Shown: positions 2,829 to 21,079 of the stretch, in pieces
Layout: every line of letters starts with the position of its first letter
How positions within the stretch are numbered: the stretch's first letter is position 1
Source: Candidatus Nanopelagicales bacterium
GTDB taxonomy: Bacteria > Actinomycetota > Actinomycetes > S36-B12 > UBA10799
Assembly: GCA_044326505.1 (NCBI GenBank)
Contig: JBIRBF010000002.1
Coordinates: 1 to 42,650 of the forward strand
Reading direction: 5' to 3'
Length of the DNA: 42,650 nt
The notes under the pieces: model-generated
The model's database searches: none
Told to the model about the DNA's origin: nothing
Seen by the model: the letters and a program-made list of their open reading frames with translations, nothing else
Position numbers and translations under genes: made by a program

Positions 2829-2831
2829 CAC

Positions 2832-3815: not shown

Positions 3816-3951
3816 ACCTCCCACATTGGGCGATGCGCACCGCCGTAACAACACCGGGGGGTCAACGGGCTCCGAGATTGCGGCAACCACGTGACACAGA
3901 TGATGAATACCGTGGGCCTGCACGCCAAGTCCGCTCGCCCTAGCATGAGGT
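3816..3951. promoter_or_regulatory. Divergent intergenic/promoter region between the GT2 gene and the REC-GGDEF-HPt gene
   Basis: 136-nt gap that is locally more A/T-rich (agatgatgaatac). Contains the dyad CCACG (3887-3891) - N19 - CGTGG (3911-3915). A TANNNT-type hexamer TAGCAT (3941-3946) lies 5 nt before GTG 3952, which fits a leaderless or near-leaderless transcript. Confidence 0.3.
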
Positions 3952-5817: not shown

Positions 5818-5863
5818 GCCTCCATGATGCAACAGTCCTGCGGATAGTCTGAATTGGGCAGGC

Positions 5864-7111
5864 GTGGAGCAAGCGCACCTGCTGACTGGAGAGCAGATGA
5901 CGACCGCTGAGGCGCCGCCTTCGAGACTGGGACGTGGACTGTCGCGCCTTGCCGCGCCGCTGCTCATCGCGGTGGCGATCCAGAGTCTCGCCAACCTCAT
6001 CTTCCACGCTGTGGTGGGACGCACCCTGACCCCCTCGGACTACGGCGCTCTGGGTGCGGTCCTGGCTGCGATGACGCTCGTCGCGGTGCCGTTGACAGCC
6101 CTGCAGACCGCGGCGGCACGCACAAGCGCAGCGGGCGGCCTCACCCGGAGCACCTCGTGGCGGGCCATCAACCGGACCTTCCTGCTGTCCCTGCCCGCGG
6201 TCCTCGTCCTGGTGGCCCTGGCGGTCCCCATCCGCGAGTTCCTGTCGCTGCACTCGACGTTCGACGCGGCGATCCTCGCCCCGACCCTGCTCACCGCGAC
6301 GGTGATCGCCGTGGCGCGCGGGCTCCTGCTGGGCGACGGGCGCAGCGGAGTCGTGGCAGCGTCGTTCATCGTCGCCACCGTGGTCCGCCTGGGTCCAGGT
6401 CTCGTCCTGGCCCACTATTGGGGCGTCACGGGCGCGCTCATCGCAACGCTTGCCGGCGAAGTCGCCGGGCTGGCTGTGGTCCTGTGGGTGGCCCTGCGGG
6501 CTCCAACTGGAGCGCTCACCCGTCTCACCGGCTCCGACGTGGCGAAGACGGGTGCCGTGGTCGCCGGACTGTTCGCGTTCTCCACGGTCGATCTCTTCCT
6601 CGCCCGGCACTTTCTCGTGGGCACCGAGTCGGGCTACTACGTCGCCGCGGCCACTATCGGCAAGACCATCCTGGCGCTGCCGGCGGCCGCGCTGTCGGTG
6701 GCCTACCCGAAACTCGTCGCCGCCTGGCCCAGCAGCCACCGATTCGCCTCGCTGCGTTCGGCCCTGCTGGTCGTGGGGCTTCCTGCGGTGGCGGGCATCG
6801 CGGTGGTGGCGCTCTTACCTGGCCTCGTGCTTACACTCCTCTACGGCAGCGGGACGTTCGATGCGGCAGCAGACCTCACCAGGGTGCTGGCAATAGTCGC
6901 CGGGATGAGCGCGTTCGTGAGCGTCTTCGCCCACGCCGCGCTGGCGCGCGAGTCGCGTTGGGCGCTCTTCCCCTGGTTCGCGGCGGCTGTGGAGGTAGTG
7001 ATCATCAGTTGGCGGCACGCGGACATGATGCAGGTGGCCCAGGGCGCTGTGGTCGCCCTCGTGATCGCCTTGCTGGGCCTGGGGCTGCGGGAAGTGCGAG
7101 CGTGGCGATGA
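5864..7111 (+). CDS. Polytopic membrane protein, MOP-superfamily (Wzx-like) oligo/polysaccharide flippase
   Basis: 415 aa, hydrophobic throughout (about 12 predicted helices by eye). The N-terminal LSRLAAPLLIAVAIQSLANLIFHAVVGRTLTPSDYGALG is typical of polysaccharide-biosynthesis flippases. GTG 5864 (ATG 5897 is an alternative). The stop overlaps the next start as ATGA (7108-7111). Confidence 0.65.
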   Translation: MEQAHLLTGEQMTTAEAPPSRLGRGLSRLAAPLLIAVAIQSLANLIFHAVVGRTLTPSDYGALGAVLAAMTLVAVPLTALQTAAARTSAAGGLTRSTSWRAINRTFLLSLPAVLVLVALAVPIREFLSLHSTFDAAILAPTLLTATVIAVARGLLLGDGRSGVVAASFIVATVVRLGPGLVLAHYWGVTGALIATLAGEVAGLAVVLWVALRAPTGALTRLTGSDVAKTGAVVAGLFAFSTVDLFLARHFLVGTESGYYVAAATIGKTILALPAAALSVAYPKLVAAWPSSHRFASLRSALLVVGLPAVAGIAVVALLPGLVLTLLYGSGTFDAAADLTRVLAIVAGMSAFVSVFAHAALARESRWALFPWFAAAVEVVIISWRHADMMQVAQGAVVALVIALLGLGLREVRAWR

Positions 7112-8961
7112 AGTCCGAGGACATCAACCTCGTCGAGCTGCTGGATTTCCGCCCCGAGTCCGGGCAAATCCTGCTCAATGGGCATCGCATGCTCATGTTC
7201 AGCCAGCGCGCTCTGGCGACCCTCAGAGAGTTGATCGTGACCCACCTCGGCCACGAGTTCGCCGCCGCGATCCTCACCCAGTTCGGCAACACGTGCGGCC
7301 GCGAGGACTTCGCGAGCATCGCAGCCGAGAGCGAGTGGGACTCCGACGCCGACCGGATCGCGTCCGGACCCGTCCTGCACAGTTGGGAGGGCATCGTGCA
7401 CGTGACACCCACCGCATTGGAGTATGACCGAACCACCGGCGAATTCCTCATGGCTGGGCAGTGGCGCAACTCCTACGAGGCCCAGAACTACCGGAGGAGT
7501 TTCGGCCCCAGCGAGCACCCCGTGTGCTGGTCGCTTGCCGGCTACGCGTCGGGCTGGTCGAGCGCGTTCTTCGGCGCCGAGTTGTTGGCCATCGAGACCA
7601 GCTGCACGGCGATGGGCGACGACCTATGCCGCTTCGAGATCCGTCCGAGGGACAGGTGGGGACCCATCGCCGACCCCTGGCGGCGCGCACAGAGTGCAAC
7701 CCCTGAATCAGTGACCTCTTACATGGAGGAACTCGTCACGGCACGCACGGCGGAACTCGCCATGTCCAACCAGCGTCTTTCTGACGCTCGGGACGCCGCC
7801 GAGCGAGCCAACAGAGTCAAAGGGCAGTTTCTGGCCAATATCAGCCATGAGCTGCGCACCCCCATGAACGGCGTGGTGGGCCTCGCCGAGGTGCTGCGCG
7901 ACTCGGACCTCGATGACGATCAACGACGTCTCGTCGATCTGATCATCGATTCGGCTGCTCAGGAGGTGGCCGTGGTGAGCGACATCCTCGACTACGCCAC
8001 GATCGAGTCCGCAACACCCGTCGCCGAGCGCTCCCCGGTGGACCTCGACGAGGTGCTGAGCGCGATGGTATCCGCGTACGCACCGCTCGCGGCCACAAAG
8101 GGGGTTCTGCTCTTACGCCGGCCGAGCCCCGACGCCGCACCCACGGTGCTCACCGACAGAGGCAAACTCAAACAGATCCTTGCCACGATCGTCAGCAACG
8201 CGATCAAGTTCACCCCGCCCGCGGGAAGCGTCGAGTTGTACTGCCGAGTCAACTCACACGACGTGGCCATTGCGATCGCTGACACCGGGATAGGCATCTC
8301 CGAGGATGCGGTGGAGGAACTCTTCGCGCCCTTCGAGCAGGCCGACGTATCACGCACCCGCAGGTTCGGCGGCACCGGTCTGGGCCTGGCGATCTGCCGC
8401 GAACTGGCGAGCGTCATCGGGGCCCGGGTGGAGGTGAGCAGCGTCCTGGGCGAGGGATCGACGTTCCTCATCACGCTGCCTGGCAGGCCCATAGCCGCGT
8501 CCGCGGCGACAGGGGGCACCCAAGCCCTTCACCCCGCCCACCTGAGCGGGAAAGGCGACGGCCCCGCCGGGTCGCTCAAGGTCCTCGTGGCAGACGACAA
8601 TCGCATCAACGCACTGGTCATCAGCCGGCTGTTGCAGTCGTTGGACTGCCAGGTCACGGCCGTGGGCGACGGGATGGAGGCGATCGCCGCCTTCGATTCC
8701 GGCGAGTTCGACCTCGTCGTGCTGGACCTGCACATGCCCGAGGCCGACGGGATCGACGTCGTGCGGCACATCCGTCGCTGCGAGAGCGCCGCGCATGCGC
8801 CGCCGCATTACGTGGCTGCCCTCACCGCCGACGCGTTCGCCGAGACTCGCGAGCGCTGCCTCGCGGCTGGCTTCTCCGACTTTCTCACCAAGCCCATCCG
8901 TAAGGAACGGGCGCTCCAACTCGTCGCCGATGCATCGGTCAGTGCCCGGTCGCGGTCCTGA
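7108..8961 (+). CDS. Hybrid histidine kinase with a XylR/DmpR-type A-domain (XylR_N + V4R) sensor - HisKA - HATPase_c - REC
   Basis: The N-terminus aligns by eye with the DmpR/XylR effector domain: [64 protein letters not shown]-box [18 protein letters not shown]. Also [18 protein letters not shown]: VLVADDN ... [13 protein letters not shown] ... TKP. ATG 7108 is in frame with ORF 6157..8961, whose upstream part is a shadow of the flippase gene. Confidence 0.9.
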
Positions 8962-11900
8962 GCCAGGGGTCAAGCGCGGCGCGAAGACCCTGCAGTGTGT
9001 AGGGCTTGGTGAGGTAGGAGTCCATCCCCGCGGCGAGACATTCCTCCTCCGTGCCGGCCATTGCGTCGGCGGTGAGGGCAACCACCGGGGTGCGCCGCCC
9101 ATCCTCACGCAGGCGCAAGGCGCGGGTGGCCTCGAAGCCGTCCATCACGGGCATCTGACAGTCCATGAGCACCAGGTCGAAGTCCGCCTGGAGCATCCGC
9201 GCAAGCGCCTCGGCCCCGTCGTGGGCGACTTCACACTCGACTCCCAGCCGAGCCAGCATTCCCTCGCCCACACGGCAGTTTGTGATGTTGTCCTCCACCA
9301 ACAAGACCTTGCCCTCGAGATGCCCGTCCGCCTTCGCTTCGACCCGATCGACGGAGGTGCGACCCTGCGTCGGCCCGGTGGTCGACGACGTGCCGAGCAG
9401 CTCGCCCACGGTGGCGCGCACCGTCGCCAGCCTCAGCGGCTTCTGCAGCCTCGCGTCGAAGACACCTACGGCCGGGTCGGAGTCGGACAAGCCCGTGGAG
9501 GTCACGAGCACCAGGGGGATGCCCGCCAGCGCCTCGTATCCCCGGATACGTGCGGCGAGCTCGGCTCCGCTGAGCTCCGGCATCTGCATGTCCAGCATCG
9601 CCGCGTCGAAGGGGCGGCCGGACACTGCGGCACCGACGAGCATGCGCCAAGCCTCCAGGCTTCCGCTGGCAGTCGATGTCACCATGCCCATGTCGGCGAG
9701 GTAGGTCGCCAGCACCACCCGGTTGGTGTCGTTGTCATCGACGACGAGCACCCGCCGTCCCGCCACACCGGCCACATCCGGCGGAGCCGCGGGCGCGTCG
9801 GAGACCACCCCGAGCGGCACCTCGAAGCTGAACGTAGTCCCGACCCCTTCGGCGCTGGTCACCCAGATTCGGCCATCCATGAGCGCCACCAACTGCTTGC
9901 AGATGGTCAGACCGAGACCGGTACCCCCGAACCGTCGGGTGGTCGTCGTGTCACCCTGCGCGAATGACTCGAAAATTCCCGTCAACTTGTCCTGCGCGAT
10001 ACCCACACCGGTGTCGGCGACGTCACACCGGACCCTGACCTCGTCCGTTTCCGACGACACCAGCCTCACGGCCACGGCGACCTCCCCCGCACTGGTGAAC
10101 TTGACCGCGTTGCCGACGAGGTTGGACATCACCTGCCGGAGGCGCGTGGGATCGCCGAGTGTCAGCTGCGGGCAGTCGGCGGTCACGAGGCAGGAGATTT
10201 CCAGGCCCCGGGACAGCGCCTGCCCGGAGAACAGCGCCGTCACGTCTTCGGCGAGGGACCTCAGGTCGAAGGGGATTCGCTCGATGCGGACCTTGCCCGC
10301 CTCTATTCGGGAGAAGTCGAGGATGTCGTTGATCACCGTCAGCAGCACCTCCGCTGACGACTGCGCCACAGTGAGGTACTCGTGCTGCCGAGCGTCGAGG
10401 TCGGTCACGCCGAGCAGGTCGAGCATGCCCAGGACCCCGTTCATGGGGGTGCGAATCTCGTGGCTCATGTTGGCCAGGAACGCAGACTTGGCTTGGGCCG
10501 CGTCTTCGGCAGCCTTGCGCGCGTCCACCGCGGCCCGACGTGCGTCCTCGGCGGCCCGCCAGGCACGATCCTCCGCGATCGACAGGGCCATCATGTCCCC
10601 GATCGCCAGCACGGCGTCGCGCAGGGAGTCGTTGCGTACGATGGGTCCCTCGGCGAACAGGGCCAGGTGACCGACGAGCCCCGGTTCGGGGCTGATGGGA
10701 ATCACCATCCCCATCACGGCATCCGATGTGGGCCCTCCAGCATCAGGCCCGATCCGCAACGGCCCCTCGACGCTGCCCAGCGGTCGGCCCAGGCTCGCCT
10801 CGACCCGGTCCACCCAGCTGTCGGCGTGGGGGCCGTAGGCCAGTTCCAAGTCGGGCACGCCCAAGTCCGAAACGCCCACTCGAAGACCCCCGCTCCAACG
10901 CCCCCCCTCATCGGTGACCAACTCCTCACAGAGGATCCGCAGCACCGACTCGAGCCGCTCCGCCAGCTCGGACGAGCCGTGCAGGGCCGCACCGCATTCC
11001 ACTCGCAGTCGCGCCGCCAGGGCCTCGCCTCGCTGGCGCCCCTCCCGCCTCACAGCTTCCGAGATGTCGCGCTGCAGCGCGACGTACCCGAGCAGGTCCC
11101 CCGAGGATGAGAAGTAGGGCGCAATCGTGGACTGCACCCAGAAGTCCTCGCCGGAGTCCCCCGCATCCGCGTCGTCCGTTGCGACGCGGCGGCGGTTGAC
11201 CAGGCGTCCGCTCCATGGACGCCCAGATGCCAGCCTGGCCCACATCGCCTCGTAGACGACCGGGTCGGTGCGGCCGCTCTTGAGCACCTGCGGCGTCTGA
11301 CCCAGGATATCCGTCCGAGACCACCCTGTGATCTCCGCGAAAGCCTGGTTGGCGTACTCGATGGTGCCGTCGGGCGCGGTGATGTAGATGGCGTCGGCGC
11401 TGGCATCCACCGCAAGCGCCAGACGGCGCAGCCTGCGGTCGTCGTCGATGCGGTCGCTGATATCGCGGATCGTCAGCCCGATCGCCGCAAGTGCACCCGC
11501 CTCACGGATGGGGAACATCAGCAGGGACACGGGCACCGTGGAACCATCTGCGGACTTGAGCAGCGCCTCGTCGTCGCGCACCGCCCCCTCTGCGCCGAGA
11601 TGCGCTCCGATGGCCGAAGCGTCAGCGTCGAGCCACGGCGTCGGACCACTCAGGGCCAGGCGCGGCAGGATGCGGGCACCGATCGACAGGGGACCCAGAA
11701 GGTCCTCCGCCGCGGGGTTCCACGAGCGCACGCCGCCTTCGAGATCGAGCCGGACGAAGCCGTCGGAGAGCGCATTGATGATCGCCGAGAGCCGATCGCG
11801 CTCGGCCGCTACCCGGGTGTCGGCGCGTCGGCGGAGCTCCGCGTTGAGTTCAGTCATCTCGGCAGCCACGGTGCTCATGGAACGCTGCAACAGATATCGG

Positions 11901-12037
11901 TCCTGGCTGCCCTCCTCGTAGGCCTTGGACACCCTCGCCAGGAGCGCCTGCCACTGGCCTGCGTCCGCCGGCGGGTCCTCCGCTTTGAGCTTCAGCCGAT
12001 CGAGTTGGCGGCGCAGCGTCGGGTGAATCGCATCCAT
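8939..12037 (-). CDS. Large hybrid histidine kinase: coiled-coil N-terminus - PAS x2 - GAF-like - HisKA - HATPase_c - REC - REC
   Basis: 1032 aa. PAS block [26 protein letters not shown]-box [18 protein letters not shown]. Also [15 protein letters not shown]. Two receivers ([18 protein letters not shown] and [23 protein letters not shown]). No HPt. Starts 8 nt after the FIST gene stop. Confidence 0.9.
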
Positions 12038-12045
12038 CTCGGACC

Positions 12046-13173
12046 TCAGACCTCGTGGAACGTCGTGAGGGTCATCGTCTGGTTGTGCAGCTCACACACA
12101 CCGGTCACCGTCGGTGATAGCTCGCCGTAGGAGTAGAAGCCCACCTGCAGACTGCCGGGCGGCAGGGTCTGCATCGTGCGTTCGAGTTCCTCCTCAGTGC
12201 TCTCCCCCAACACCATGCGACGTCCCACGCACGAGATCGCCACGGCCAAGACTGGCGGGCCCGAAGTCGTGGGCGACGCTTGCTCGGCGGCGTCGAGGGC
12301 ACCATCGACCAGTTGCTCCGACCCTGCCCCCATCAACTGCGCGAGCCAGCCCTGCGGAACGTCCCCGGCGAAGATCATGGCGCCCGAGGACTCGTCCACT
12401 CCGAGCAGCGTGCGCACCAAGGCGCGCGGCGAATCGGGGGACTCGCGCACCGCCAGGGGGAACCGGAGGCCGCTTGCCGGCAGATTCTCGGCCAGGTCTC
12501 CGAGGTACTGGCGGTAAAGCGCAAGCGCTGGGCGATCGTCAAGTTCCAGTAGTACGTTGCCCTGCGACTTGGTGATGAGACGCTCGGGGCCGAACCCCTC
12601 CCAACCGCCCCGCGATCCATGGCCGATTCGGATGCGGTCGCCGTAGAAGCCAACCGCGGTGGCCACACCCTCCTGCGCCCTGCCCCCGGCGATCACCCAC
12701 GTGCCTTCGAAGTCCGTCCCGTCTCCGGCGAGCCCACCCGTGACCAGCACCTGCGGGGGTAGTCCCGCGGCGAGCCCCCGCACGAGGTCGCTGCCATTGA
12801 CCTGCAGACCCGGAGCGACCACCAAGACCGCACGCAGACCTTCCTGGACAAACTGGGCGCCGAGAGCCCGCCCGCATGCGAGGGATTCCGAGGGTTCGGT
12901 CAGCGGCGCCGAAACTGAGGCGAGAGTGGTGCCGTCGAAGCGCACGACTGCAGCAGTGACCGTGTGGTCGAAGACCCCGTCGCCCAGAATCTCGCCAGCA
13001 CTCGAGCAGCCCAGGTGCACCGACTGTGGGAACCGTGCCAACAACTCGCCGATCCGCTCACGCTCGTCCCGGCCGCCGAAGGCCAGCACCAGCGTGCTGG
13101 GGCCGTCAAGTTCCGTCGGCGGCGCAGCCACCCAGCGGCCGTGCCCGTCCAGTTGGCATCGGCGCATCTGCAT
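12046..13173 (-). CDS. FIST (FIST_N + FIST_C) sensory domain protein
   Basis: Motifs: [12 protein letters not shown] (FIST_N) and [11 protein letters not shown]....[15 protein letters not shown] (FIST_C hallmark). Start placed at ATG 13173 (GGAGG 5 nt upstream). GTG 13215 is the longest option. Confidence 0.85.
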
Positions 13174-13304
13174 CCTGACCTCCACCTCGGCGCCCACCCG
13201 CGGCGCCTGCGACACCGACGCGGTCGGCTGCGCCCCTCCAGTGTGGCATGCACAGGTCTAGCCGGATCCTCCCCCCAGCGCCCCCGACCAGGCATCCGAG
13301 TGGT

Positions 13305-13721
13305 TCACGTGAGCCAACGGGCACCGAGCTGCTCGATACCCTCGACGAGCCCGGCGGCAGCACCGCGAGGCACCACCGGACCGGGTGTCCACGCGAGCGC
13401 GTCGAACGGGCATACCTCCACACAGACGCCGCAGAACATGCACAGGCCGAAGTCGATCGCGAAGGCGTCCAGCACCTTGACCTTGCGCGTCCGTCCGCGC
13501 GGCCGGCCGCTGCCCGGCGCCGTCGGATCACCAACAGGCTGCTGCTCCTCGACGTGCGCGGCCAGCGAGATGCACCAGGTGGGGCACTCGGCCACACAGA
13601 TGTTGCAGGCGGTGCAGGCCGGCGGCAGCAAGGCGATGGCGCCATGCGGGGCGATCGGGTTCAGGTCCGTCCGGCCCTCCGTCGCCCCGGCCGGGTCCTT
13701 GGCGCTCACGGACGCTCCCAT
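13305..13721 (-). CDS. NuoI-like 2x[4Fe-4S] ferredoxin (paralogue, not part of the main nuo operon)
   Basis: Two CxxCxxCxxxCP motifs: CTACNICVAECP and CMFCGVCVEVCP, the second in the NuoI-type context IDFGLCMFCG. ATG 13721 is used here. GTG 13709 (GGGAG SD 5 nt upstream, GTGA overlap with the upstream stop) is at least as good. The TTG 13778 of the ORF track is unlikely. Confidence 0.75.
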   Translation of the reverse strand: MGASVSAKDPAGATEGRTDLNPIAPHGAIALLPPACTACNICVAECPTWCISLAAHVEEQQPVGDPTAPGSGRPRGRTRKVKVLDAFAIDFGLCMFCGVCVEVCPFDALAWTPGPVVPRGAAAGLVEGIEQLGARWLT

Positions 13722-14212
13722 TCCTTGTTGATTCCCGGCACTCGGGCGCGCCGGCCTGCCTCTCGGGCGCCAGGCCAAGGGGTGCTCAGCCGGCGCTCCA
13801 AGGGCGTGCCGCGCCGCAGCGGTGGCGGAGTTCCGGCCGGCAGCAGCAGCGGCCGATGATCCCCGCCGACGAACCGCACCCCGAGCATCTCGGCCGTCTC
13901 GCGCTCGTGCCAGTCCGCACCCTCGAACACCTCGCGCACGCTCTCCAGGTCCTCGTCCGCGCCCAACTGCGTGCGCACCAGCACATCCTCGTACTCGGTC
14001 TGCACGAGCGCGACAACCTGGGTGCCCCCCGATCCGTCATCAACTCCGCCGAGCCAGTCGAGCCAGGCACCCACGTCACGCGCCGCGCGCAGCACCACCG
14101 GCCAACTCGCCGGCTCCACGTCCAGGCACCCGACGCCGGCGGCATCCCCGAGTGACTCACTCGAGCCGGACTCCGCGGCCCGCAGCACCACATCGAGCAG
14201 CAGCCCACTCAT
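13706..14212 (-). CDS. NuoC-like (complex I 30-kDa subunit family) paralogue
   Basis: 168 aa. GADWHERETAEMLGVRFVGGDHRPLLLP....PLRRG parallels the authentic NuoC of this window ([28 protein letters not shown]...PQRKD). ATGA overlap with the upstream NuoB-like gene (14209-14212). Confidence 0.7.
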   Translation of the reverse strand: MSGLLLDVVLRAAESGSSESLGDAAGVGCLDVEPASWPVVLRAARDVGAWLDWLGGVDDGSGGTQVVALVQTEYEDVLVRTQLGADEDLESVREVFEGADWHERETAEMLGVRFVGGDHRPLLLPAGTPPPLRRGTPLERRLSTPWPGAREAGRRARVPGINKEWERP

Positions 14213-14709
14213 GGCGCCTCCCCCAGCAGGCCGACTACAGCCTCACGAATGGCACTGGGCACCGCCTCCGGCCGCGGCGGGCAGCCGGCGACCTCGATCG
14301 CGCCCGGCAGTGCGTCCCGGAGTCCAGGCACAACCGAATACGAGTCCCAATACGGTCCGCCGGACAGCGTGCAGGCTCCGAAGGCAACGGCTGCCCGGGG
14401 CTCGGGCAGCTCCTCGAACGCGGCGACGACGTCGGGCAGCGTCACGTGCGTGACAGTCCCCGCAACCACGAGCACGTGCGCCTGCACGCCAGCGCCGGCA
14501 GCCGAATCGATCCGCCGCAGCCCCTCGTCGAGCTCCACTGCGCAGCATGCAAGCCGGAGCGGCACGATTCGCACCGTTCGCCCGTCGACGATCGCATCCA
14601 CGCGACCAGGGTATGCCTCTCGAGCAGCAAGATCGGCGCGCCTACACTTGAAGGGTAGGCAGTCTGAGCCGACACCCGCGTGCGCGGCAAGCCCGCGCCC
14701 GATTCGCAC
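14209..14709 (-). CDS. NuoB-like [4Fe-4S] protein (complex I 20-kDa/PSST family) paralogue
   Basis: All four N2-cluster Cys contexts are present: LACCAVE, GACTLSGG, GCPPRPEA. It is collinear with the authentic NuoB ([26 protein letters not shown]). The start is uncertain. ATG 14709 leaves only 8 bp to divergent korA. GTG 14601 is preceded by a TANNNT hexamer (TACCCT) 6 nt upstream and would leave a 116-nt intergenic region. Confidence 0.75.
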   Translation of the reverse strand: MRIGRGLAAHAGVGSDCLPFKCRRADLAAREAYPGRVDAIVDGRTVRIVPLRLACCAVELDEGLRRIDSAAGAGVQAHVLVVAGTVTHVTLPDVVAAFEELPEPRAAVAFGACTLSGGPYWDSYSVVPGLRDALPGAIEVAGCPPRPEAVPSAIREAVVGLLGEAP

Positions 14710-14717
14710 GAGGTCGA

Positions 14718-16574
14718 ATGTCCAAGAAGAAGGTCACCAAGGTCAAGCGCGTCATCATCCGCTTCGCCGGCGACTCCGGCGACGGTATGCAGCTCACCGG
14801 CGACCAGTTCACCTCCACCACCGCGGTCTTCGGCAACGACCTCTCGACGCTGCCCGACTTCCCGGCCGAGATCCGCGCACCAGCCGGCACCCTGCCCGGC
14901 GTCAGCGCCTTCCAGTTGCACTTCGCCGACCACGACATCCTCACTCCTGGCGACACCCCCGATGTGCTGGTCGCCATGAACCCTGCAGCACTCAAGGCCA
15001 ACTTGGCCATGATGCCGCGCGGGGCCCAGATCATCGCGAACACCGACGAGTTCACCAAGCGGGCCTTGACCAAGGTCGGATACGACGCCAACCCGCTCGA
15101 GGACGACAGCTTGGACGGGTACCGGCTGCACCCCGTTCCGCTGACGTCGATGACCGTCGCAGCGCTGACCGACTACGACGTCTCGAAGAAGGACGCCGAG
15201 CGGGCCAAGAACATGTTCGCCCTCGGCCTGCTGCTATGGCTCTATAGCCGGCCGCTAGACCACACCGAGACGTTCCTGCACGAGAAGTTCGCCCGCAAGC
15301 CCGAGATCCTCAAAGCCAACATCGCCGCACTGCACGCGGGCTGGAACTACGGCGACACCACCGACGCCTTCGCGATCAAGTACGAGGTCGCCCCGGCTCC
15401 GCAGAAGACCGGCACCTACCGCAACGTCTCGGGCAACCTTGCGCTGTCCTACGGCCTGGTCGCGGCCGCGCACTGCACCAAGCTGCCGCTGTTCCTGGGC
15501 AGCTACCCCATCACCCCGGCCAGCGACATCCTGCACGAGCTCAGCAAGCACAAGCGCTTCGGCGTCGAGACGTTCCAGGCCGAGGACGAGATCGCCGGTA
15601 TCGGCGCCGCCCTTGGTGCCGCGTACGGCGGCGCCCTGGGGGTCACCACGACGTCGGGCCCGGGGATGGCGCTCAAGAGCGAGACCATCGGCCTAGCGGT
15701 GTCCCTCGAGCTGCCGCTCATCATCGTCGATGTGCAACGCGGTGGGCCCTCGACGGGCCTGCCGACCAAGACCGAGCAGTCCGACCTGCTGCAGGCCATG
15801 TTCGGCCGCAACGGCGAGTCGCCGGTGCCGATCGTCGCGCCAAAGTCACCGGGCGACTGCTTCAACGCCGCGATCGAGGCCGCGCGGATCGCGACGACCT
15901 ACCGCACGCCGGTGATCCTGCTCTCCGACGGCTACCTGGCCAACGGCTCTGAGCCCTGGCGCGTGCCCGACCTGTCCGAGTTGCCCGACCTGGCGATCGA
16001 TTTCGCCACCTCGACGAACCACGTCGAGGCCGACGGCACCGAGGTCTTCTGGCCCTTCAAGCGCGATCCGCAGACCCTCGCCAGGCCATGGGCGGTCCCC
16101 GGCACCCCGGGCCTCGAGCACCGCATCGGCGGGATCGAGAAGGCCGACGGCTCGGGGAATATCTCCTACGACGCCGCCAACCACGAGCGGATGGTGCAGT
16201 TGCGCGCCGCCAAGGTGGCCGGCATCACCGTGCCCGACGTCGAGGTGGACGGCCAGGAGGGCGCCGAGGTGCTGGTGGTCGGCTGGGGTTCGACCTTCGG
16301 GCCGATCAGCACCGCTGTGGCACAGGTGCGGGAGGCCGGCGGCAAAGTCGCCCACGCCCATCTGCGCCACCTCAACCCGTTCCCAGCCAACCTCGGCGAG
16401 GTCCTACGGGCGTACCCGACGGTGCTGGTACCGGAGATGAACACGGGCCAACTGGCCCTGCTGCTGCGCGGCACCTACCTGGTCGATGCCCAGCGCATCA
16501 CCAAGGTGCAGGGCCAGCCCTTCACCGCTGCCGAGCTGCAGCACGCAATCGAGGAGGCGACCGACCGTGGCTGA
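14718..16574 (+). CDS. korA: 2-oxoglutarate:ferredoxin (acceptor) oxidoreductase, alpha subunit
   Basis: 618 aa. The N-terminus RFAGDSGDGMQLTGDQFT....FGNDLSTLPDFPAEIRAPAGT is typical of KorA/2-oxoacid:acceptor oxidoreductases. GAGG SD lies 5 nt before the ATG. Confidence 0.9.
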   Translation: MSKKKVTKVKRVIIRFAGDSGDGMQLTGDQFTSTTAVFGNDLSTLPDFPAEIRAPAGTLPGVSAFQLHFADHDILTPGDTPDVLVAMNPAALKANLAMMPRGAQIIANTDEFTKRALTKVGYDANPLEDDSLDGYRLHPVPLTSMTVAALTDYDVSKKDAERAKNMFALGLLLWLYSRPLDHTETFLHEKFARKPEILKANIAALHAGWNYGDTTDAFAIKYEVAPAPQKTGTYRNVSGNLALSYGLVAAAHCTKLPLFLGSYPITPASDILHELSKHKRFGVETFQAEDEIAGIGAALGAAYGGALGVTTTSGPGMALKSETIGLAVSLELPLIIVDVQRGGPSTGLPTKTEQSDLLQAMFGRNGESPVPIVAPKSPGDCFNAAIEAARIATTYRTPVILLSDGYLANGSEPWRVPDLSELPDLAIDFATSTNHVEADGTEVFWPFKRDPQTLARPWAVPGTPGLEHRIGGIEKADGSGNISYDAANHERMVQLRAAKVAGITVPDVEVDGQEGAEVLVVGWGSTFGPISTAVAQVREAGGKVAHAHLRHLNPFPANLGEVLRAYPTVLVPEMNTGQLALLLRGTYLVDAQRITKVQGQPFTAAELQHAIEEATDRG

Positions 16575-17589
16575 GACGGCGACACCGACCGTGGCCCTGA
16601 AGGCCAAGGACTTCAAGTCCGACCAGGAGGTCCGCTGGTGCCCCGGCTGCGGCGACTACGCGATCCTGGCCACCGTCCAGAGTTTCTTGCCCGAACTGGG
16701 CAAGCGGCGCGAGGACATCGTGTTCGTGTCCGGCATCGGCTGCTCGTCGCGATTCCCCTACTACCTGACCACCTACGGCATGCACTCGATCCACGGTCGC
16801 GCGCCGGCGATCGCGACCGGCCTGTCGGTATCACGACCCGACCTCGACGTGTGGGTGGTCACCGGTGACGGCGACGCCCTGAGCATCGGCGGCAACCACC
16901 TGATCCATGCGTTGCGCCGGAACGTCGACATGACCATCCTGCTGTTCAACAACCGCATCTACGGCCTCACCAAGGGGCAGTACTCCCCCACCTCCGAACT
17001 CGGCAAGGTCACCAAGTCCACACCGGTGGGCAGCGTGGACCGACCCTTCAACCCGGTGCAGCTCGCACTCGGTGCGGGTGCCACGTTCGTGGCGCGCACG
17101 ATGGACTCCGACCGGCAGCACCTCACCTCCGTGCTGCGCGCGGCGGCGGAGCACAAGGGCACCTCGCTGGTCGAGATCTACCAGAACTGCAACATCTTCA
17201 ACGATGGCGCCTTCGACCTGCTGAAGGACCCGACCACCCGCGACGAGGCGCTGATCCGCTTGGTGCCCGGCGAGCCGATCACCTTCGCCGAGGGCACCAG
17301 GGCGGTGGTCCGCGACGGCTACTGCGGGCTGCGGACCGCGAACACCGCGGACGTGGACCCCGCCGACATCGTCATCCACGACCCCACCCGTGAATCGCCC
17401 CTTACCGCCCTCGCTCTGGCCCAGATGGCCGACCAGCCGACCAACCGGCACACCGCGATCGGGGTCTACCGCAGCGTCGAGGCTCCCACGTACAACGAGG
17501 GCTTCGCCGCCCAACTGGCCGATGCCGAGCGGCCGACGGCCAACCTGCACGATCTGTTCGCCGGCTCCGACACCTGGACTATCGACTGA
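16567..17589 (+). CDS. korB: 2-oxoglutarate:ferredoxin oxidoreductase, beta (TPP-binding) subunit
   Basis: Motifs: WCPGCGDYAIL, SGIGCSSRFPYY, VVTGDGDALSIGGNH. GTG 16567 overlaps the korA stop by 8 nt. The upstream part of ORF 16486.. lies inside korA. Confidence 0.9.
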   Translation: MAETATPTVALKAKDFKSDQEVRWCPGCGDYAILATVQSFLPELGKRREDIVFVSGIGCSSRFPYYLTTYGMHSIHGRAPAIATGLSVSRPDLDVWVVTGDGDALSIGGNHLIHALRRNVDMTILLFNNRIYGLTKGQYSPTSELGKVTKSTPVGSVDRPFNPVQLALGAGATFVARTMDSDRQHLTSVLRAAAEHKGTSLVEIYQNCNIFNDGAFDLLKDPTTRDEALIRLVPGEPITFAEGTRAVVRDGYCGLRTANTADVDPADIVIHDPTRESPLTALALAQMADQPTNRHTAIGVYRSVEAPTYNEGFAAQLADAERPTANLHDLFAGSDTWTID

Positions 17590-18569: not shown

Positions 18570-19826
18570 ATGGCAGAGAATCCACAGTCCCCTTTCACCA
18601 CCGCAGAGCGACTGGCACTGGTGGAACTGGTGCGGGACTTCACCGCCGAACAGATCGCCCCGAACCTCCCAGCCTGGGAGGAGGCTGGCGAACTTCCGCG
18701 CACGCTGCACCTCGCCGCTGGCGACTTGGGCCTGCTCGGGCTCAGCCATGCCGCCGACGTGGGCGGCTCGGGCGGCACCCTGGTCGATGTGGTGCTCATG
18801 ACCGAGCAGGTGCTCGCAGCCGGCGGCTCCGGCGGTCTGGTGGCCGCCCTGTTCACCCATGGCATCGCGATCCCACACGTCGTGGACGCCGCCGCTCGTG
18901 CCCGCGCCGCTGGCGATACGGCGACTGCCGAACTCCTCATCGACCAGATCGTCCGCCCCACGCTGGCCGGTCGCGCTATCACCGCGCTCGGTGTGACCGA
19001 GCCGGACGGCGGCTCCGATGTGGCGGCCCTGCGGACGGCCGCCGTCCCCATCGACGCCGATGGCGCCCCCGCCTCACCGGACGCCGCCCAGGCCTGGCGG
19101 CTCAACGGCGCGAAGGCCTACATCACCTCCGGTGCGCGGGCCGACACGGTCATCGTCGCGGCCCGGGCTTTCGGCGCGGGCGCCGGCGGCATAGCGCTGT
19201 TCGCCGTCCCCACCGACGCCCCCGGGTTCAACGTCATGCGTCGCATGGCCAAGATGGGCTGGCACTGCTCCGACACCGCTGAACTGTCGCTGGTTGATGT
19301 TGACGTGCCGGCCTGGCGCCTGCTCACCCCGGGGCCCGGACTCGGATTCGCCTCCTTGGCCCGACACTTCGCGGTGGAGCGCGTGTCCCTGGCCGTGACC
19401 GCCTACGCCACGGCCCAACGCTGCCTCGACCTCACGGTCAACTGGGTGCGCCACCGGCAGACCTTCGGCCGACCGTTGATGGATCGCCAGGTGGTGCGCC
19501 ACCGCCTGGTCGAGATGCACCGCCTGACCGACACCGCACGGCTCTACACCCGCGCACTGGTTGTGGACCTGGTCGCCATCGGCGCGAACGAGGCATCGGG
19601 CGGACTACCCGACACCGACCTCATGCTGCGCGCAGTCCTGGCGAAGAACACGGCGGTGGCCGCGTGCGATGCCGTGGTCGCCGACGCGGTTCAGTTGCAC
19701 GGCGGCTACGGCTTCCTGCAGGACGCTGAGGTGGAGCGGCACTACCGCGACGCCAAGGTCCTCGGCATCGGCGGCGGCGCCACCGAAGTCATGACCGACC
19801 TGGCTGCCCGCCTGCTCGGCTACTGA
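18570..19826 (+). CDS. Acyl-CoA dehydrogenase family protein
   Basis: Motifs: GVTEPDGGSDVAAL, AYITSG, RQTFGRPL, QLHGGYGFLQDAEVERHYRDAKVLGIGGGATEV. ATG 9 nt after rarD. Confidence 0.9.
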   Translation: MAENPQSPFTTAERLALVELVRDFTAEQIAPNLPAWEEAGELPRTLHLAAGDLGLLGLSHAADVGGSGGTLVDVVLMTEQVLAAGGSGGLVAALFTHGIAIPHVVDAAARARAAGDTATAELLIDQIVRPTLAGRAITALGVTEPDGGSDVAALRTAAVPIDADGAPASPDAAQAWRLNGAKAYITSGARADTVIVAARAFGAGAGGIALFAVPTDAPGFNVMRRMAKMGWHCSDTAELSLVDVDVPAWRLLTPGPGLGFASLARHFAVERVSLAVTAYATAQRCLDLTVNWVRHRQTFGRPLMDRQVVRHRLVEMHRLTDTARLYTRALVVDLVAIGANEASGGLPDTDLMLRAVLAKNTAVAACDAVVADAVQLHGGYGFLQDAEVERHYRDAKVLGIGGGATEVMTDLAARLLGY

Positions 19827-19861
19827 GCACTGCCCCGCCGACCTGCGCAGCTGTGCGCGCT

Positions 19862-19897
19862 CTCGGCGCGCGCCGAGGGCTCACGTCGTGGTGAGCC
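19862..19897 (+). terminator. Candidate tandem hairpins downstream of the acyl-CoA dehydrogenase gene
   Basis: 16-bp perfect palindrome ctcggcgcgcgccgag (19862-19877), followed directly by ggctcac-gtcgtg-gtgagcc (7-bp stem, 19878-19897). No strong U-tract. Confidence 0.3.
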
Positions 19898-19927
19898 GAT
19901 TAGGATCGAGCGCAGGTCACGAGCAGG

Positions 19928-21079
19928 GTGAAGGACCCCCGTACGCCACATGGCAGGCAGGAGCACAAGGTGGATCAGGACGCGCCGGGCAGCAGCTTCG
20001 CCAACCTGCCTGAGCGCGCCCAGCGGGCGCTGGCGGGCCTGGACCTGCAGGGCGTCGGGCTCGAGATCGGGCCGTCCTTCAACCCGATCGCTCCACGCTC
20101 CGCCGGCTTCGACGTGCGCATCCTCGATCACGCCAGCCAGGCGGACCTGATCGGCAAGTACCGAGAGGTCGGACTCACAGCCGCCGAGCTCGACCGGATC
20201 GAAGAGGTCGACTTCGTCTGGTCCTCGGGTCCGGTGCACGAGGCCGTCACCTCGGGCGAACGCTTCAGCTACATCGTCGCAGCGCACGTCATTGAGCACG
20301 TCACGGACATCGTGGCGCTACTGGACACGGCCCAGCGGCTGCTCGAACCCGGCGGGCAACTGTCGCTCATCGTGCCCGACAAGCGCTTCTGCTTCGACCG
20401 CATGCGCCCGGTGACAACTGTGGGGCAAGTCGTCGAGGCACACCTCGACCCCGCGCTCTTCCACGGTCCCGCGCCCTTCATCGACACGCACCTCTACACG
20501 GTTCGGAAGTTCGGCACGGGCAACACTTGGGACCTGCACTCGGGCACCGACCTGCGCATTCCGGGCTGCGAGTGGGACACCGTGCGCGACACCATCACGC
20601 GGGTGCACCAGGCCGACGAGTACATCGACATCCACCGTTGGGTCTTCACCCCCGCGTCGTTGCGGCTGCTCATCAGCGACCTGCGCTCGCTCGGCTACAC
20701 GGACATGGACATCGTCCAGATCACGCCGACCGATTCGTTCGAGTTCTTCGCACGCCTGGCCGTGCGGCCGCGGGACACCGACTCCGACGCAGGCGTGGAC
20801 TCGGCGGACCGCTGGGCGCTGCTCCAGAAGATCGAGCGGGAACAGGCCGAGGTGGCCCTGGCCGACGACCTCGCCCGTGCGGCCCAGTACGACGAGTTGG
20901 CCGAGCACCTCGACGAAGTCTCGTCCGCCTTCCGCGCGACCCTGGCCGAGCGCGACGCGCTGGCGAACGCCAACGCCGAGCTCACCGAGAAACTGGCCGC
21001 TATGACCTCGTCGGCTTCATGGCGGGCCACCGCACCGCTGCGACGCGCCAAGTCGATCATCCAGCCGGACAGCGAGTAG
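19928..21079 (+). CDS. Class I SAM-dependent methyltransferase with a C-terminal coiled-coil tail
   Basis: Methyltransferase core GLEIGPSFNP ... IVAAHVIEHV.D....L......LLEPGGQLSLIVPD. The last ~100 aa are heptad-like (LAEHLDEVSSAFRATLAERDALANANAELTEKLAAM) and end in SSASWRATAPLRRAK. GTG start. Confidence 0.7.
   Translation: MKDPRTPHGRQEHKVDQDAPGSSFANLPERAQRALAGLDLQGVGLEIGPSFNPIAPRSAGFDVRILDHASQADLIGKYREVGLTAAELDRIEEVDFVWSSGPVHEAVTSGERFSYIVAAHVIEHVTDIVALLDTAQRLLEPGGQLSLIVPDKRFCFDRMRPVTTVGQVVEAHLDPALFHGPAPFIDTHLYTVRKFGTGNTWDLHSGTDLRIPGCEWDTVRDTITRVHQADEYIDIHRWVFTPASLRLLISDLRSLGYTDMDIVQITPTDSFEFFARLAVRPRDTDSDAGVDSADRWALLQKIEREQAEVALADDLARAAQYDELAEHLDEVSSAFRATLAERDALANANAELTEKLAAMTSSASWRATAPLRRAKSIIQPDSE

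What the first reader, a model, noticed from the sequence alone, without database searches (positions are those of the whole stretch)
13305..14709. Orphan NuoB/NuoC/NuoI-like trio: an Fe-S module of complex I/group-4 hydrogenase type without NuoD, NADH module or membrane subunits
Seen in sequence: three consecutive minus-strand genes are clear paralogues of the authentic nuoB, nuoC and nuoI found 20 kb away in the same window. The NuoB-like protein keeps all four cluster-N2 cysteine contexts (LACCAVE, GACTLSGG, GCPPRPE). The NuoI-like protein keeps both CxxCxxCxxxCP motifs. The NuoC-like protein keeps DWHERE..(M/F)(L/F)G. The genes are tightly coupled (ATGA at 14209-14212; a GTGA or 16-nt overlap at 13706-13721). 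No frame in 13.2-14.7 kb has room for a NuoD or hydrogenase large-subunit homologue (about 400 aa), and no NuoH/L/M/N-like gene is adjacent. Established knowledge: in complex I, Mbh/Ech/Hyc hydrogenases and Ehr complexes, the NuoB-type subunit functions at the interface with the NuoD/large subunit and is membrane-docked through NuoH. Partial second nuo sets known in actinomycetes lack the NADH module but still keep D and the membrane arm. Inference: this is either a decaying remnant of a group-4-hydrogenase/Ehr-like locus or a stand-alone soluble three-cluster electron-transfer module. The intact motifs and preserved translational coupling favour function.
Basis: partly seen in the sequence, partly recalled or inferred. 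Interest (0 to 1): 0.7.

Follow-up and report, generated by a model that had tools for sequence, protein, structure and literature searches.

The report
Membrane-less remnant of second complex I
Three small iron-sulfur-type genes beside the 2-oxoglutarate oxidoreductase genes are the conserved, still-selected soluble leftover of a second complex-I-like enzyme of actinomycetes that has lost all its membrane subunits; it probably acts as a soluble electron wire, but no partner or activity has been shown.

Summary
Three translationally coupled minus-strand genes (13305-14601) encode NuoB-, NuoC- and NuoI-type proteins. All 4 + 8 cluster cysteines are present, and no NuoD or membrane subunit is adjacent.

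It is neither a hydrogenase/Ehr relic nor a decaying remnant. It is the B/C/I subset of the actinomycete partial second complex-I operon (nuoABCHIJKLMN, "nuo2"). That operon also lacks nuoD in cis and lies beside korAB at the same chromosomal position.

- **Shared signatures:** GGPYWDSY in B, a WPG tail in C and CPxWCI in I tie the trio to nuo2.
- **Recurrence:** among 92 type-2 loci, 34 are trio-only, and 21 of these have korA divergently adjacent. Another 44 keep the membrane genes.
- **Lost docking elements:** trio-type B always lacks the N-terminus and the PRQ(A/S)D loop that contacts NuoH and quinone. Trio-type I always lacks its N-terminal segment. Membrane-type proteins keep these.
- **Selection:** cysteine motifs are intact in about 97-99% of 239 B homologues, and dN/dS is 0.14-0.32.

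Best reading (inferred): a soluble three-[4Fe-4S] wire, probably serving KorAB.

Two things remain unresolved: a nuoD2 encoded elsewhere, as reported in Streptomyces, and the acceptor. I rate it a new variant of a known kind, of moderate interest.

The parts
14209..14601 (-). NuoB-type [4Fe-4S] protein, 130 aa ('trio-B'). It has a truncated N-terminus and no PRQ(A/S)D loop. It keeps all four cluster-N2-type cysteines.
   Evidence: PF01058, E 1.6e-14. Alignments with nuo2 B2 and canonical NuoB. AlphaFold2 pLDDT 95.2, and Foldseek top hits are complex I NuoB/PSST with TMq 0.63-0.77. The start is set by the entry for the window's own protein (P0001, 130 aa) and by alignment with L014.
13706..14212 (-). 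NuoC-type scaffold protein, 168 aa ('trio-C'). It carries the type-2-specific C-terminal tail (WPGA...RR..PG(I/V)..W). It overlaps trio-B by ATGA.
   Evidence: PF00329, E 1.1e-17. W146-P147-G148 are invariant in alignments A1 and A3. In the AlphaFold2 model the mean pLDDT of every 10-residue block from 31 to 120 is 93 or more, and the blocks covering residues 131-168 average 53-67. Foldseek top hits are NuoC/NDUFS3 with TMq about 0.7.
13305..13709 (-). NuoI-type 2x[4Fe-4S] protein, 134 aa ('trio-I'). It lacks the N-terminal segment found in NuoI and I2. Its GTG start overlaps the trio-C stop (GTGA).
   Evidence: 4Fe-4S dicluster Pfam families. NuoI is the best NCBIfam match (E 1e-11, below the curated cut-off). 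Alignment with I2 and canonical NuoI. Motif census across loci.
14602..14717 (.). 116-bp divergent intergenic spacer between trio-B and korA. It presumably holds both promoters.
   Evidence: ORF coordinates. Conserved blocks between the window and L014. The consensus scan found no sigma-70-like site.
14718..16574 (+). korA, the alpha subunit of a two-subunit 2-oxoacid:acceptor oxidoreductase. It is transcribed divergently from the trio.
   Evidence: TIGR03710 OAFO_sf, E 1.6e-201, above the curated cut-off. Pfam POR, POR_N and PFOR_II. Divergent korA adjacency recurs in 21 of 34 trio loci.
16567..17589 (+). korB, the beta subunit (TPP and [4Fe-4S]-binding). The start is approximate.
   Evidence: PF02775, E 6e-33. 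The best NCBIfam hits are 2-oxoacid ferredoxin oxidoreductase beta models: NF008820 at 255.7 bits (cut-off 402) and TIGR02177 at 252.5 bits, just below its 261.9 cut-off. The start was placed by analogy with the 8-nt korA/korB overlap in L014.

Best explanation
**What it is (shown).** The trio is the B/C/I part of the actinomycete second, partial complex-I gene set (nuoABCHIJKLMN, 'nuo2'). It sits at the same chromosomal place as that operon: nuo1 - polyprenyl synthase - EamA - korBA <-> [here] - yajQ. In this lineage all seven membrane-subunit genes (A, H, J, K, L, M, N) are absent. The B and I proteins have lost the segments that in complex I touch NuoH/NuoA and line the quinone cavity. All twelve cluster-ligand cysteines are kept, and the genes are under purifying selection.

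**How it most likely works (inferred).**
- The three proteins form a soluble subcomplex.
- The NuoI-type protein (two [4Fe-4S]) and the NuoB-type protein (one [4Fe-4S] with the tandem-Cys N2-type ligation) make a three-cluster wire. The NuoC-type protein holds it together.
- The wire no longer ends in a membrane quinone site.
- The most likely partner is the two-subunit 2-oxoglutarate:acceptor oxidoreductase KorAB encoded divergently next door. KorAB has no ferredoxin-type delta subunit of its own.
- On this reading the trio is KorAB's dedicated ferredoxin-like acceptor, with electrons flowing KorB cluster -> I -> B. It passes them to a soluble or peripheral acceptor that is still unknown.

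**Confidence by part.** Evolutionary identity and retained function: about 0.9. Soluble, quinone-site-less module: about 0.6. KorAB as partner: about 0.35-0.4.
For: **Homology and signatures**
- Trio-B and nuo2 B2 share GGPYWDSY with a one-residue insertion relative to canonical GGMFNNY.
- Trio-C and C2 share the WPGA...RR..PPGV..W tail, which canonical NuoC lacks.
- Trio-I and I2 share CP(D/T)WCI..(S/A)H.E and VLD.F.IDF.LCM.CG.C..VCPFDAL.W.

**Position**
- The same synteny holds in the window, L001, L005, L014, L031, L088 and L095 for the trio.
- For the full operon, korBA lies directly upstream in L018, L030, L049 and L067, and korBA with an intervening two-component system in L017.

**Census of 92 type-2 loci**
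- 34 are trio-only: C is followed directly by I, and none has A2/H2/J-N.
- 44 are membrane-type.
- 14 are undetermined.
- No NuoD/E/F/G homologue occurs in 863 kb of these loci, apart from the window's canonical genes.

**Docking elements co-vary with the membrane genes**
- PRQ(A/S)D is absent from every trio-type B. Every membrane-type B that is complete at its 5' end keeps it, together with the conserved N-terminal motif and the CC-to-strand-2 loop. That loop measured 32 residues in most membrane-type B; four loci gave other values in the regex measurement.
- 0 of 239 listed trio-type B homologues keep PRQ(A/S)D.
- The N-terminal [TS]x[QEM]YP motif of I is kept in 0/31 trio-type and 23/26 membrane-type proteins.
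- L035 keeps A2-B2-C2-H2-I2 but has no J-N, and it still has the docking motifs.
- By my residue count, the two arginines of the lost loop correspond to E. coli NuoB R87 (contacts quinone and NuoH D223) and R91 (pairs with NuoH E228), as described in PMC10212512.

**Function retained**
- Cysteine motifs are intact.
- dN/dS for window vs L014: B 0.16, C 0.18, I 0.14. For L069 vs L056: 0.32, 0.23, 0.21. This is comparable with EamA/YajQ and higher than KorA/KorB at 0.06-0.10.
- Predicted folds are confident.

**KorAB link**
- korA is divergent and adjacent in 21/34 trio loci, and in 12/16 where more than 2.5 kb of upstream sequence is available.
- Spacers are 35-434 bp.
- KorAB here is the two-subunit alpha/beta type.
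Against: - No direct evidence exists for complex formation, cluster occupancy, expression or any partner.
- The korAB neighbourhood lies in a generally syntenic core region, so adjacency alone is weak evidence.
- Four trio loci with enough upstream sequence have no korAB beside them (L003, L004, L053, L091).
- From memory, Mycobacterium tuberculosis has KorAB without such a trio, so neither partner strictly requires the other.
- A nuoD2 is reported at a separate locus in Streptomyces (PMC8388888, PMC3765725). A D-type partner in trans therefore cannot be excluded for the window's genome, of which only 42.6 kb is visible.
- The strongly conserved GGPYWDSY surface next to the N2-type cluster is shared by trio and membrane types. 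That is what one would expect if both still face a common partner such as a NuoD2.
- The terminal acceptor is unknown.
- The trio genes evolve two to three times faster than korAB.
Confidence: 0.45

Rival explanations
1. Split known complex. The trio still works with a NuoD2-type subunit encoded elsewhere in the genome. It would form either a complete soluble B-C-D-I Q-module or, with membrane subunits encoded elsewhere, an ordinary nuo2-type membrane enzyme.
For: In Streptomyces, nuoD2 is reported apart from the nuo2 operon (PMC8388888, PMC3765725). The conserved GGPYWDSY surface near the N2-type cluster is shared by trio-type and membrane-type B. Only 42.6 kb of the genome is visible.
Against: In every trio-type locus, B and I lack the segments that contact NuoH/NuoA and the quinone cavity. 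These segments are kept wherever H/A are present. This argues against a membrane enzyme, though not against a soluble B-C-D-I module. No second NuoD lies within 10 kb of any of 92 type-2 loci. Whether nuoD2 belongs to nuo2 at all has not been shown.
Confidence: 0.2
2. Conserved soluble Fe-S module with a KorAB-independent role. It could be a general low-potential electron carrier for another enzyme, or a redox-sensing module. The korAB adjacency would then be inherited synteny only.
For: Trio loci without adjacent korAB exist (L003, L004, L053, L091). The flanks are a conserved core-genome region: nuo1, the polyprenyl synthase gene, yajQ, rpmG and MaoC-type dehydratase genes. In the window, a FIST sensor and a PAS hybrid histidine kinase follow the trio on the same strand after 89 bp.
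Against: The divergent korA-trio arrangement, with short spacers, persists across deeply diverged lineages while other neighbours change. The FIST/kinase neighbours are unique to the window: relatives have a toxin-antitoxin pair, DUF1697 or yajQ there.
Confidence: 0.25
3. Alternative peripheral stub for the canonical complex I. Trio B/C/I would replace NuoB/C/I (and NuoEFG) on the nuo1 membrane arm together with the canonical NuoD, giving a ferredoxin- or KorAB-fed complex I.
For: A complete canonical nuo operon lies within 8-20 kb in the window. The end of a canonical nuo operon (nuoL/M/N, and nuoH-N in L003/L004) also lies upstream in L001, L003-L005, L014, L031, L053, L088, L091 and L095. 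Complex I variants with other electron-input modules are known (PMC4453560).
Against: Trio-B lacks the N-terminal segment and both loop arginines that build the NuoH interface and quinone cavity. Trio-I lacks its N-terminal segment. Identity to the canonical subunits is only about 30%.
Confidence: 0.07
4. Decaying remnant (pseudogenes in the making) of a lost nuo2 or hydrogenase-type locus, with no function.
For: Branches are longer and dN/dS is higher than for korAB. N-terminal truncations are present.
Against: The reading frames are intact and coupled in 34 loci from diverse lineages. Cluster cysteines are kept in about 97-99% of homologues. dN/dS is 0.14-0.32, far below 1. The trio is retained directly downstream of the nuo operon in two near-identical loci, L003 and L004, that lack adjacent korAB. 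The trio is not hydrogenase-like by sequence or predicted fold.
Confidence: 0.03

Closest known systems
Partial second complex-I operon of actinomycetes (nuoABCHIJKLMN, 'nuo2'; Streptomyces, Salinispora, Micromonospora, Nonomuraea)
   Same: The B, C and I proteins share lineage-specific signatures: GGPYWDSY, the WPG tail and CPxWCI. The chromosomal position next to korAB is the same. Both lack nuoD and nuoEFG in cis (PMC8622039).
   Different: The trio has none of the seven membrane-subunit genes. Its B and I have lost the segments that dock to NuoH/NuoA and line the quinone cavity. The function of nuo2 itself has not been studied in the literature I could search.
Q-module of respiratory complex I (NuoB/NuoC/NuoD/NuoI = NDUFS7/S3/S2/S8)
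   Same: The domain families and predicted folds match. The four N2-type cysteines, including the tandem CC, are present, as are the eight N6a/N6b-type cysteines.
   Different: There is no NuoD. The proteins are shorter: 130, 168 and 134 aa against 184, about 239 and 186 aa for the canonical proteins in the same window. All scores fall far below the NCBIfam cut-offs. The quinone-cavity loop is absent.
11-subunit, NuoEFG-less complex I-like enzymes (cyanobacterial/chloroplast NDH-1, Fpo-like, Desulfitobacterium type) that use ferredoxin or other donors
   Same: The NADH module is absent. The best PDB sequence match of trio-B is NdhK, and the best single-stretch match of trio-I is NdhI. A link to a ferredoxin-producing enzyme (KorAB) is plausible.
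   Different: Those enzymes keep NuoD/NdhH and the whole membrane arm, and they pump ions. The trio has neither.
Delta (ferredoxin-like) subunit of four-subunit 2-oxoacid:ferredoxin oxidoreductases (PorD/KorD/OorD)
   Same: It is a small 2x[4Fe-4S] protein encoded beside the catalytic subunits. It offers a functional analogy for trio-I as first acceptor of KorB electrons.
   Different: Trio-I scores only 24.9-28.2 bits against the PorD_KorD, OGOR_delta and OorD models, against cut-offs of 60-125. It is closer to NuoI. It also comes with NuoB- and NuoC-type partners.

Membership tests
Respiratory complex I / NDH-1 Q-module subunits | NuoB-type domain with four cluster-N2 cysteines (CC...C...CPP) | tested here: met
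   PF01058 above the gathering threshold. The motifs are present. They are conserved in 119/120 and 115/119 homologues.
Respiratory complex I / NDH-1 Q-module subunits | NuoC (30 kDa) domain and NuoI-type 2x[4Fe-4S] domain | tested here: met
   PF00329, E 1.1e-17. Two CxxCxxCxxxCP motifs. NuoI is the best NCBIfam hit. Folds.
Respiratory complex I / NDH-1 Q-module subunits | Scores reach the curated NuoB/NuoC/NuoI family cut-offs (NCBIfam) | tested here: not met
   NuoB 85.7 bits against a cut-off of 116. NuoC_fam 41.3 against 122. NuoI 44.5 against 113.
Respiratory complex I / NDH-1 Q-module subunits | NuoD (49 kDa) partner forming the quinone site with NuoB | tested here: not met
   No NuoD homologue lies next to the trio in the window or within 10 kb in 92 type-2 loci. 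A copy elsewhere in the genome could not be tested.
Respiratory complex I / NDH-1 Q-module subunits | NuoB loop arginines (E. coli R87/R91) and N-terminal segment that contact NuoH and quinone; NuoI N-terminal segment | tested here: not met
   Absent from the window protein and from all trio-type loci. The roles of these residues are taken from PMC10212512.
Respiratory complex I / NDH-1 Q-module subunits | Membrane arm (NuoA, H, J, K, L, M, N) encoded with it | tested here: not met
   None occurs in any of the 34 trio-type loci.
Actinomycete partial nuo2 cluster (nuoABCHIJKLMN) | Type-2 sequence signatures in B, C and I | tested here: met
   GGPYWDSY, the WPG tail and CPxWCI/VCPFDAL.W are shared.
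Actinomycete partial nuo2 cluster (nuoABCHIJKLMN) | Location next to korAB, between nuo1 and yajQ | tested here: met
Actinomycete partial nuo2 cluster (nuoABCHIJKLMN) | Presence of A2, H2, J2-N2 membrane-subunit genes | tested here: not met
Group 4 [NiFe]-hydrogenase / Ehr complexes | Large (NuoD/HycE-type) subunit and membrane subunits; small subunit closer to HycG/EchC/MbhJ than to NuoB | tested here: not met
   No large subunit is present. For trio-B: MbhJ E 3e-12 and HycG 7e-10, against NdhK 5e-18 and NuoB 1e-16. The 50 listed Foldseek hits are all complex I or NDH-1 NuoB-type chains.
2-oxoacid:ferredoxin oxidoreductase delta subunit (PorD/KorD) | Score above the family cut-off | tested here: not met
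   TIGR02179 28.2 bits against a cut-off of 60. OGOR_delta 26.3 against 125.
Soluble three-cluster electron-transfer complex serving KorAB (proposed) | Physical B-C-I complex, Fe-S occupancy, and electron transfer from KorAB | not testable with these tools
No multimer tool, expression data or biochemistry was available.

The most novel reading that the evidence does not exclude
The trio is a free-standing, NuoD-less 'Q-module' that has been re-purposed. The NuoB-type cluster would be solvent- or partner-exposed because NuoD and NuoH are gone. It would be the exit of a three-cluster wire bolted onto KorAB, giving a five-subunit 2-oxoglutarate oxidoreductase with a built-in complex-I-derived electron wire and a new, non-quinone acceptor. 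By extension, the membrane-type nuo2 would be a KorAB-fed, proton-pumping 2-oxoglutarate:menaquinone oxidoreductase.
Probability: 0.25. Interest if true: 0.8.

Novelty: new variant of a known kind. Interest (0 to 1): 0.55.

Why it matters
NuoB-type subunits are thought to work only at the interface with a NuoD or hydrogenase large subunit on a membrane anchor. A NuoB-NuoC-NuoI set that has lost both partners, yet stays under selection in many soil and freshwater Actinomycetota, would be a counter-example. It would also be a natural dissection of the complex I Q-module.

The finding yields concrete, testable hypotheses for two open points. One is the physiological electron acceptor of the two-subunit actinobacterial 2-oxoglutarate oxidoreductase. 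The other is the function of the widespread but unstudied partial nuoABCHIJKLMN operon of Streptomyces and its relatives.

If a nuoD2 in trans turns out to partner the trio, the finding shrinks to a split and reduced form of a known enzyme.

Tried and rejected
1. A genome-contig scan with the single C-like protein returned only distant NuoC genes of WOR-3, Caldipriscus and Gemmatimonadales.
I used A3 instead.
3. The promoter/terminator consensus scan of 11900-15000 found nothing, which is uninformative in a 68-72% GC genome.
4. Literature searches for a D-less B/C/I trio, a KorAB-nuo2 link or a NuoD-less complex found nothing relevant. The only hits were the Streptomyces notes on nuo2/nuoD2 and nuoABCHIJKLMN.
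5. A single origin for the trio type is supported by bootstrap (87/100) only when the B N-terminal and loop columns that define the type are included. Support falls to 29/100 without them, 26/100 for B (from strand 2 onward) + C + I core columns, and 0/100 for C alone. The number of origins is unresolved, and I do not claim monophyly.
6. The hydrogenase/Ehr origin and the pseudogene reading were considered and rejected.
7. A search seeded with a basal trio-type B, aimed at finding a cultured carrier, returned only uncultured sources among its top 120 hits.
Full report
**1.

Three minus-strand ORFs fill 13305-14709.
- Pfam assigns the first to Oxidored_q6/NuoB (E 1.6e-14).
- It assigns the second to Complex1_30kDa/NuoC (E 1.1e-17).
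- It assigns the third to 4Fe-4S dicluster families. All three pass gathering thresholds.
- NCBIfam ranks NuoB, NuoC and NuoI models first, but every score is far below the curated cut-off: 85.7 vs 116, 41.3 vs 122, 44.5 vs 113 bits. The proteins are therefore divergent.

The overlaps are also as described:
- ATGA at 14209-14212.
- GTGA at 13706-13709. An ATG at 13721 is the alternative start.

There is one correction. The B-like gene almost certainly starts at GTG 14601 and encodes 130 aa. This is the length of the database entry for the window's own protein, and it aligns with the start in the closest relative, L014. That leaves a 116-bp spacer to the divergent korA.

Paralogy with the authentic nuoB/C/I of the same window is real but distant: 32%, 42% (over 31 aa) and 30% identity.

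**2. What surrounds it**

- Divergently upstream lie korA (14718-16574) and korB. They form a two-subunit alpha/beta 2-oxoacid:acceptor oxidoreductase (TIGR03710, E 1.6e-201). An EamA transporter gene follows.
- The canonical 14-gene nuo operon occupies about 22.2-37.7 kb on the minus strand, followed by a polyprenyl synthase gene.
- Downstream of the trio, on the same strand, are a FIST sensor and a PAS hybrid histidine kinase.

**3. The trio recurs without NuoD**

- The B-like protein has thousands of relatives. The best 120 are 108-195 aa (median about 138) and come from metagenomes and from actinobacterial genomes assembled from metagenomes (MAGs). Source names include Frankiales, Nanopelagicales and Streptosporangiaceae.
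- Of these, 119/120 keep the CC, GxC and GC(P/A)P motifs. The single exception is a fragment.
- Gene contexts on long contigs repeat one pattern: nuoL-M-N, polyprenyl synthase, EamA, korB, korA, then divergently B-C-I, then yajQ (L001, L005, L014). L013 (korB, korA, B-C-I) shows the core of this pattern on a 6-kb contig.
- Two near-identical loci, L003 and L004, have the trio directly after the nuo operon and no korAB beside it.

**4. Where it comes from**

- The closest cultured relatives of the C-like protein are in Micromonospora, Salinispora, Nonomuraea and Streptomyces, at 38-45% identity.
- There the gene sits in a second nuo cluster next to korAB: A2-B2-C2-H2-(...)-I2-J2-K2-L2-M2-N2. 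That cluster has no D and no E/F/G.
- Streptomyces genome papers note this partial nuoABCHIJKLMN operon (PMC8622039). They also note a nuoD2 at a separate locus (PMC8388888, PMC3765725). I found no functional study.

Alignments show lineage-specific characters shared by the trio and nuo2 but not by the canonical subunits:
- GGPYWDSY, with a one-residue insertion, in B.
- A C-terminal tail with invariant WPG, followed by RR..PPGV..W, in C.
- CP(D/T)WCI..(S/A)H.E and VLD.F.IDF.LCM.CG.C..VCPFDAL.W in I.

By sequence, trio-B is nearer to NdhK/NuoB (E 5e-18 to 1e-16) than to MbhJ (3e-12) or HycG (7e-10). By predicted fold, all 50 listed Foldseek matches are complex I or NDH-1 NuoB-type chains (TMq 0.63-0.77). 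A hydrogenase or Ehr origin is therefore not supported.

**5. Census**

A metagenome scan seeded with a trio-C alignment gave 80 more loci. I classified all loci by tblastn, using the window's proteins and the Nonomuraea nuo2 proteins as queries. Of 92 loci with a type-2 NuoC:

| Class | Loci | Notes |
|---|---|---|
| Trio-only | 34 | C directly followed by I; none has A2, H2 or J-N |
| Membrane-type | 44 | H2 follows C |
| Undetermined | 14 | short contigs |

- korA is divergent and adjacent in 21/34 trio loci, and in 12/16 with more than 2.5 kb of upstream sequence.
- yajQ follows in 15 trio loci.
- tblastn with NuoD, E, F and G at E < 0.05 found nothing in 863 kb except the window's own canonical genes.
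- L035 is an intermediate: korA, then A2-B2-C2-H2-I2, then yajQ, with no antiporter-like genes.

**6. The anatomy changes with the membrane genes**

- Every trio-type B lacks the conserved N-terminal segment (the ...RRYSLWVFNFG region) and the PRQ(A/S)D motif. Its CC-to-strand-2 loop varies between 23 and 42 residues where it could be measured.
- Every membrane-type B that is complete at its 5' end, including L035, keeps both motifs. Its loop measured 32 residues in most loci; four loci gave other values in the regex measurement.
- None of 239 listed trio-type B homologues has PRQ(A/S)D.
- Counting from the tandem cysteines, the two arginines of the canonical ...FRPSPRQAD stretch correspond to E. 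coli NuoB R87 and R91. The residue mapping is my own count. According to PMC10212512, R87 contacts quinone and NuoH D223, R91 pairs with NuoH E228, and the two NuoB loops line the quinone cavity.
- Trio-type I lacks the roughly 45-residue N-terminal segment (GLAKGL...TQQYP...LPPRSRG) in 31/31 complete cases. 23/26 membrane-type I proteins keep it. That this segment lies on NuoH at the membrane surface is from my memory of complex I structures.
- The cysteine motifs are intact in both types.
- The parts needed for docking to the membrane arm and for forming the quinone site are thus gone exactly where the membrane genes are gone.

**7. It is not decaying**

| Pair | B | C | I | Comparison genes |
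|---|---|---|---|---|
| window vs L014 (dS 0.9-1.3) | 0.16 | 0.18 | 0.14 | KorA 0.06, KorB 0.10, EamA 0.21 |
| L069 vs L056 (dS 0.3-0.4) | 0.32 | 0.23 | 0.21 | KorA 0.09, KorB 0.07 |

All values are dN/dS by the Nei-Gojobori (NG86) method.

- AlphaFold2 models trio-B at pLDDT 95.2 and pTM 0.89.
- For trio-C, the mean pLDDT of every 10-residue block from 31 to 120 is 93 or more. The blocks covering the conserved tail (residues 131-168) average 53-67. Low confidence is common for a segment that orders only on a partner, but this is not shown here.

**8. Phylogeny**

- Neighbour-joining trees rooted on the canonical subunits place the trio type next to, or inside, the membrane type, on longer branches.
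- Trio monophyly has 87/100 bootstrap support only when the type-defining B columns are included.
- Support falls to 29/100 without those columns, 26/100 for B (from strand 2 onward) + C + I core columns, and 0/100 for C alone.
- One loss versus several independent losses is therefore unresolved. Either way the ancestral state is the membrane-type cluster, because that type retains the segments homologous to canonical NuoB and NuoI.

**9. Mechanism**

Shown:
- The trio is homologous to nuo2 B/C/I.
- The membrane genes and the docking elements have been lost.
- The cluster ligands are retained.
- The genes are under purifying selection.
- They are recurrently adjacent to korAB.

Inferred:
- The three proteins form a soluble subcomplex with a three-cluster wire: two clusters in I and one N2-type cluster in B.
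- That wire no longer feeds a membrane quinone site.
- The most economical partner is KorAB. It is of the two-subunit type, lacks a ferredoxin-like delta subunit and needs an external acceptor.
- The final acceptor is unknown.

Arguments against the KorAB link:
- The region is broadly syntenic, so adjacency carries limited weight.
- Four trio loci lack adjacent korAB.
- From memory, mycobacteria have KorAB without such a trio.

**10. Main caveat**

Such a gene is reported for nuo2 in Streptomyces.

A soluble B-C-D2-I module therefore remains possible. A membrane-bound complex is much less likely, given section 6.

**11. Verdict**

This is a real, conserved and apparently undescribed reduced form of a known but unstudied gene cluster. 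Searches of the available literature found no description of it. I rate it a new variant of a known kind, of moderate interest.

The comparative pattern of lost docking elements with retained clusters is the strongest new result. The KorAB-acceptor function is a hypothesis.

Noticed in passing
window 146-13215: An island of signalling genes lies on the side where relatives have yajQ. A FIST sensor (12046-13215, -) sits 89 bp downstream of the trio on the same strand. It is followed by a PAS hybrid histidine kinase (8939-12037, -), an XylR_N/V4R hybrid kinase (6157-8961, +) and a PAS/HNOBA kinase (146-2377, -). The closest relative, L014, has a PhdYeFM/PIN toxin-antitoxin pair and yajQ there instead.
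   Followed up: partly
L035 1010-5093: An intermediate architecture: korA, then divergently A2-B2-C2-H2-I2, followed directly by yajQ. It has no J2-N2 antiporter-like genes. Its B and I keep the NuoH-docking motifs.
   Followed up: partly
window 13706-13830 (C-terminal tail of trio-C); alignments A1 and A3: All type-2 NuoC proteins, both trio and membrane type, carry a C-terminal tail with an invariant WPG and a basic RR..PPGV..W stretch. Canonical NuoC lacks it. AlphaFold2 predicts it with low confidence (block means 53-67), so it may be a partner-binding segment.
   Followed up: partly
L016, L017, L018 (B2 proteins): Even membrane-type B2 proteins have Ala rather than Arg at the position that, by my count, matches E. 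coli NuoB R87, the quinone-contacting arginine (..FAPGPRQAD vs canonical ..FRPSPRQAD). The quinone site of nuo2 may already differ from canonical complex I.
   Followed up: no
L018 14593-15843; L085 and L077 I genes: The Nonomuraea NuoI2 is 416 aa, with a long low-complexity Pro/Ala/Thr/Glu-rich C-terminal tail. Some trio-type I proteins carry 49-76-residue Gly/Pro-rich insertions between the two cluster motifs, against 34-40 residues in most.
   Followed up: no
L019 1-170 vs L014 9885-10000: The trio genes of L019 and L014 are 98-99% identical, but the sequence upstream of trio-B is unrelated in L019. This suggests a recent rearrangement on the korA side.
   Followed up: no
window 38752-40041 (+) and 41842-42630 (-): A chorismate-binding enzyme (isochorismate synthase-like) and a truncated TPP enzyme (possibly MenD-like) flank the upstream end of the canonical nuo operon. 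They may be menaquinone-biosynthesis genes.
   Followed up: no
window 40157-41824 (+): A DUF222/HNH endonuclease protein. From memory, this family is often repeated in actinobacterial genomes.
   Followed up: no
window 18570-21079: An acyl-CoA dehydrogenase gene and a methyltransferase gene are inserted between EamA and the polyprenyl synthase gene. The same insertion occurs in L014 but not in L001 or L005.
   Followed up: no
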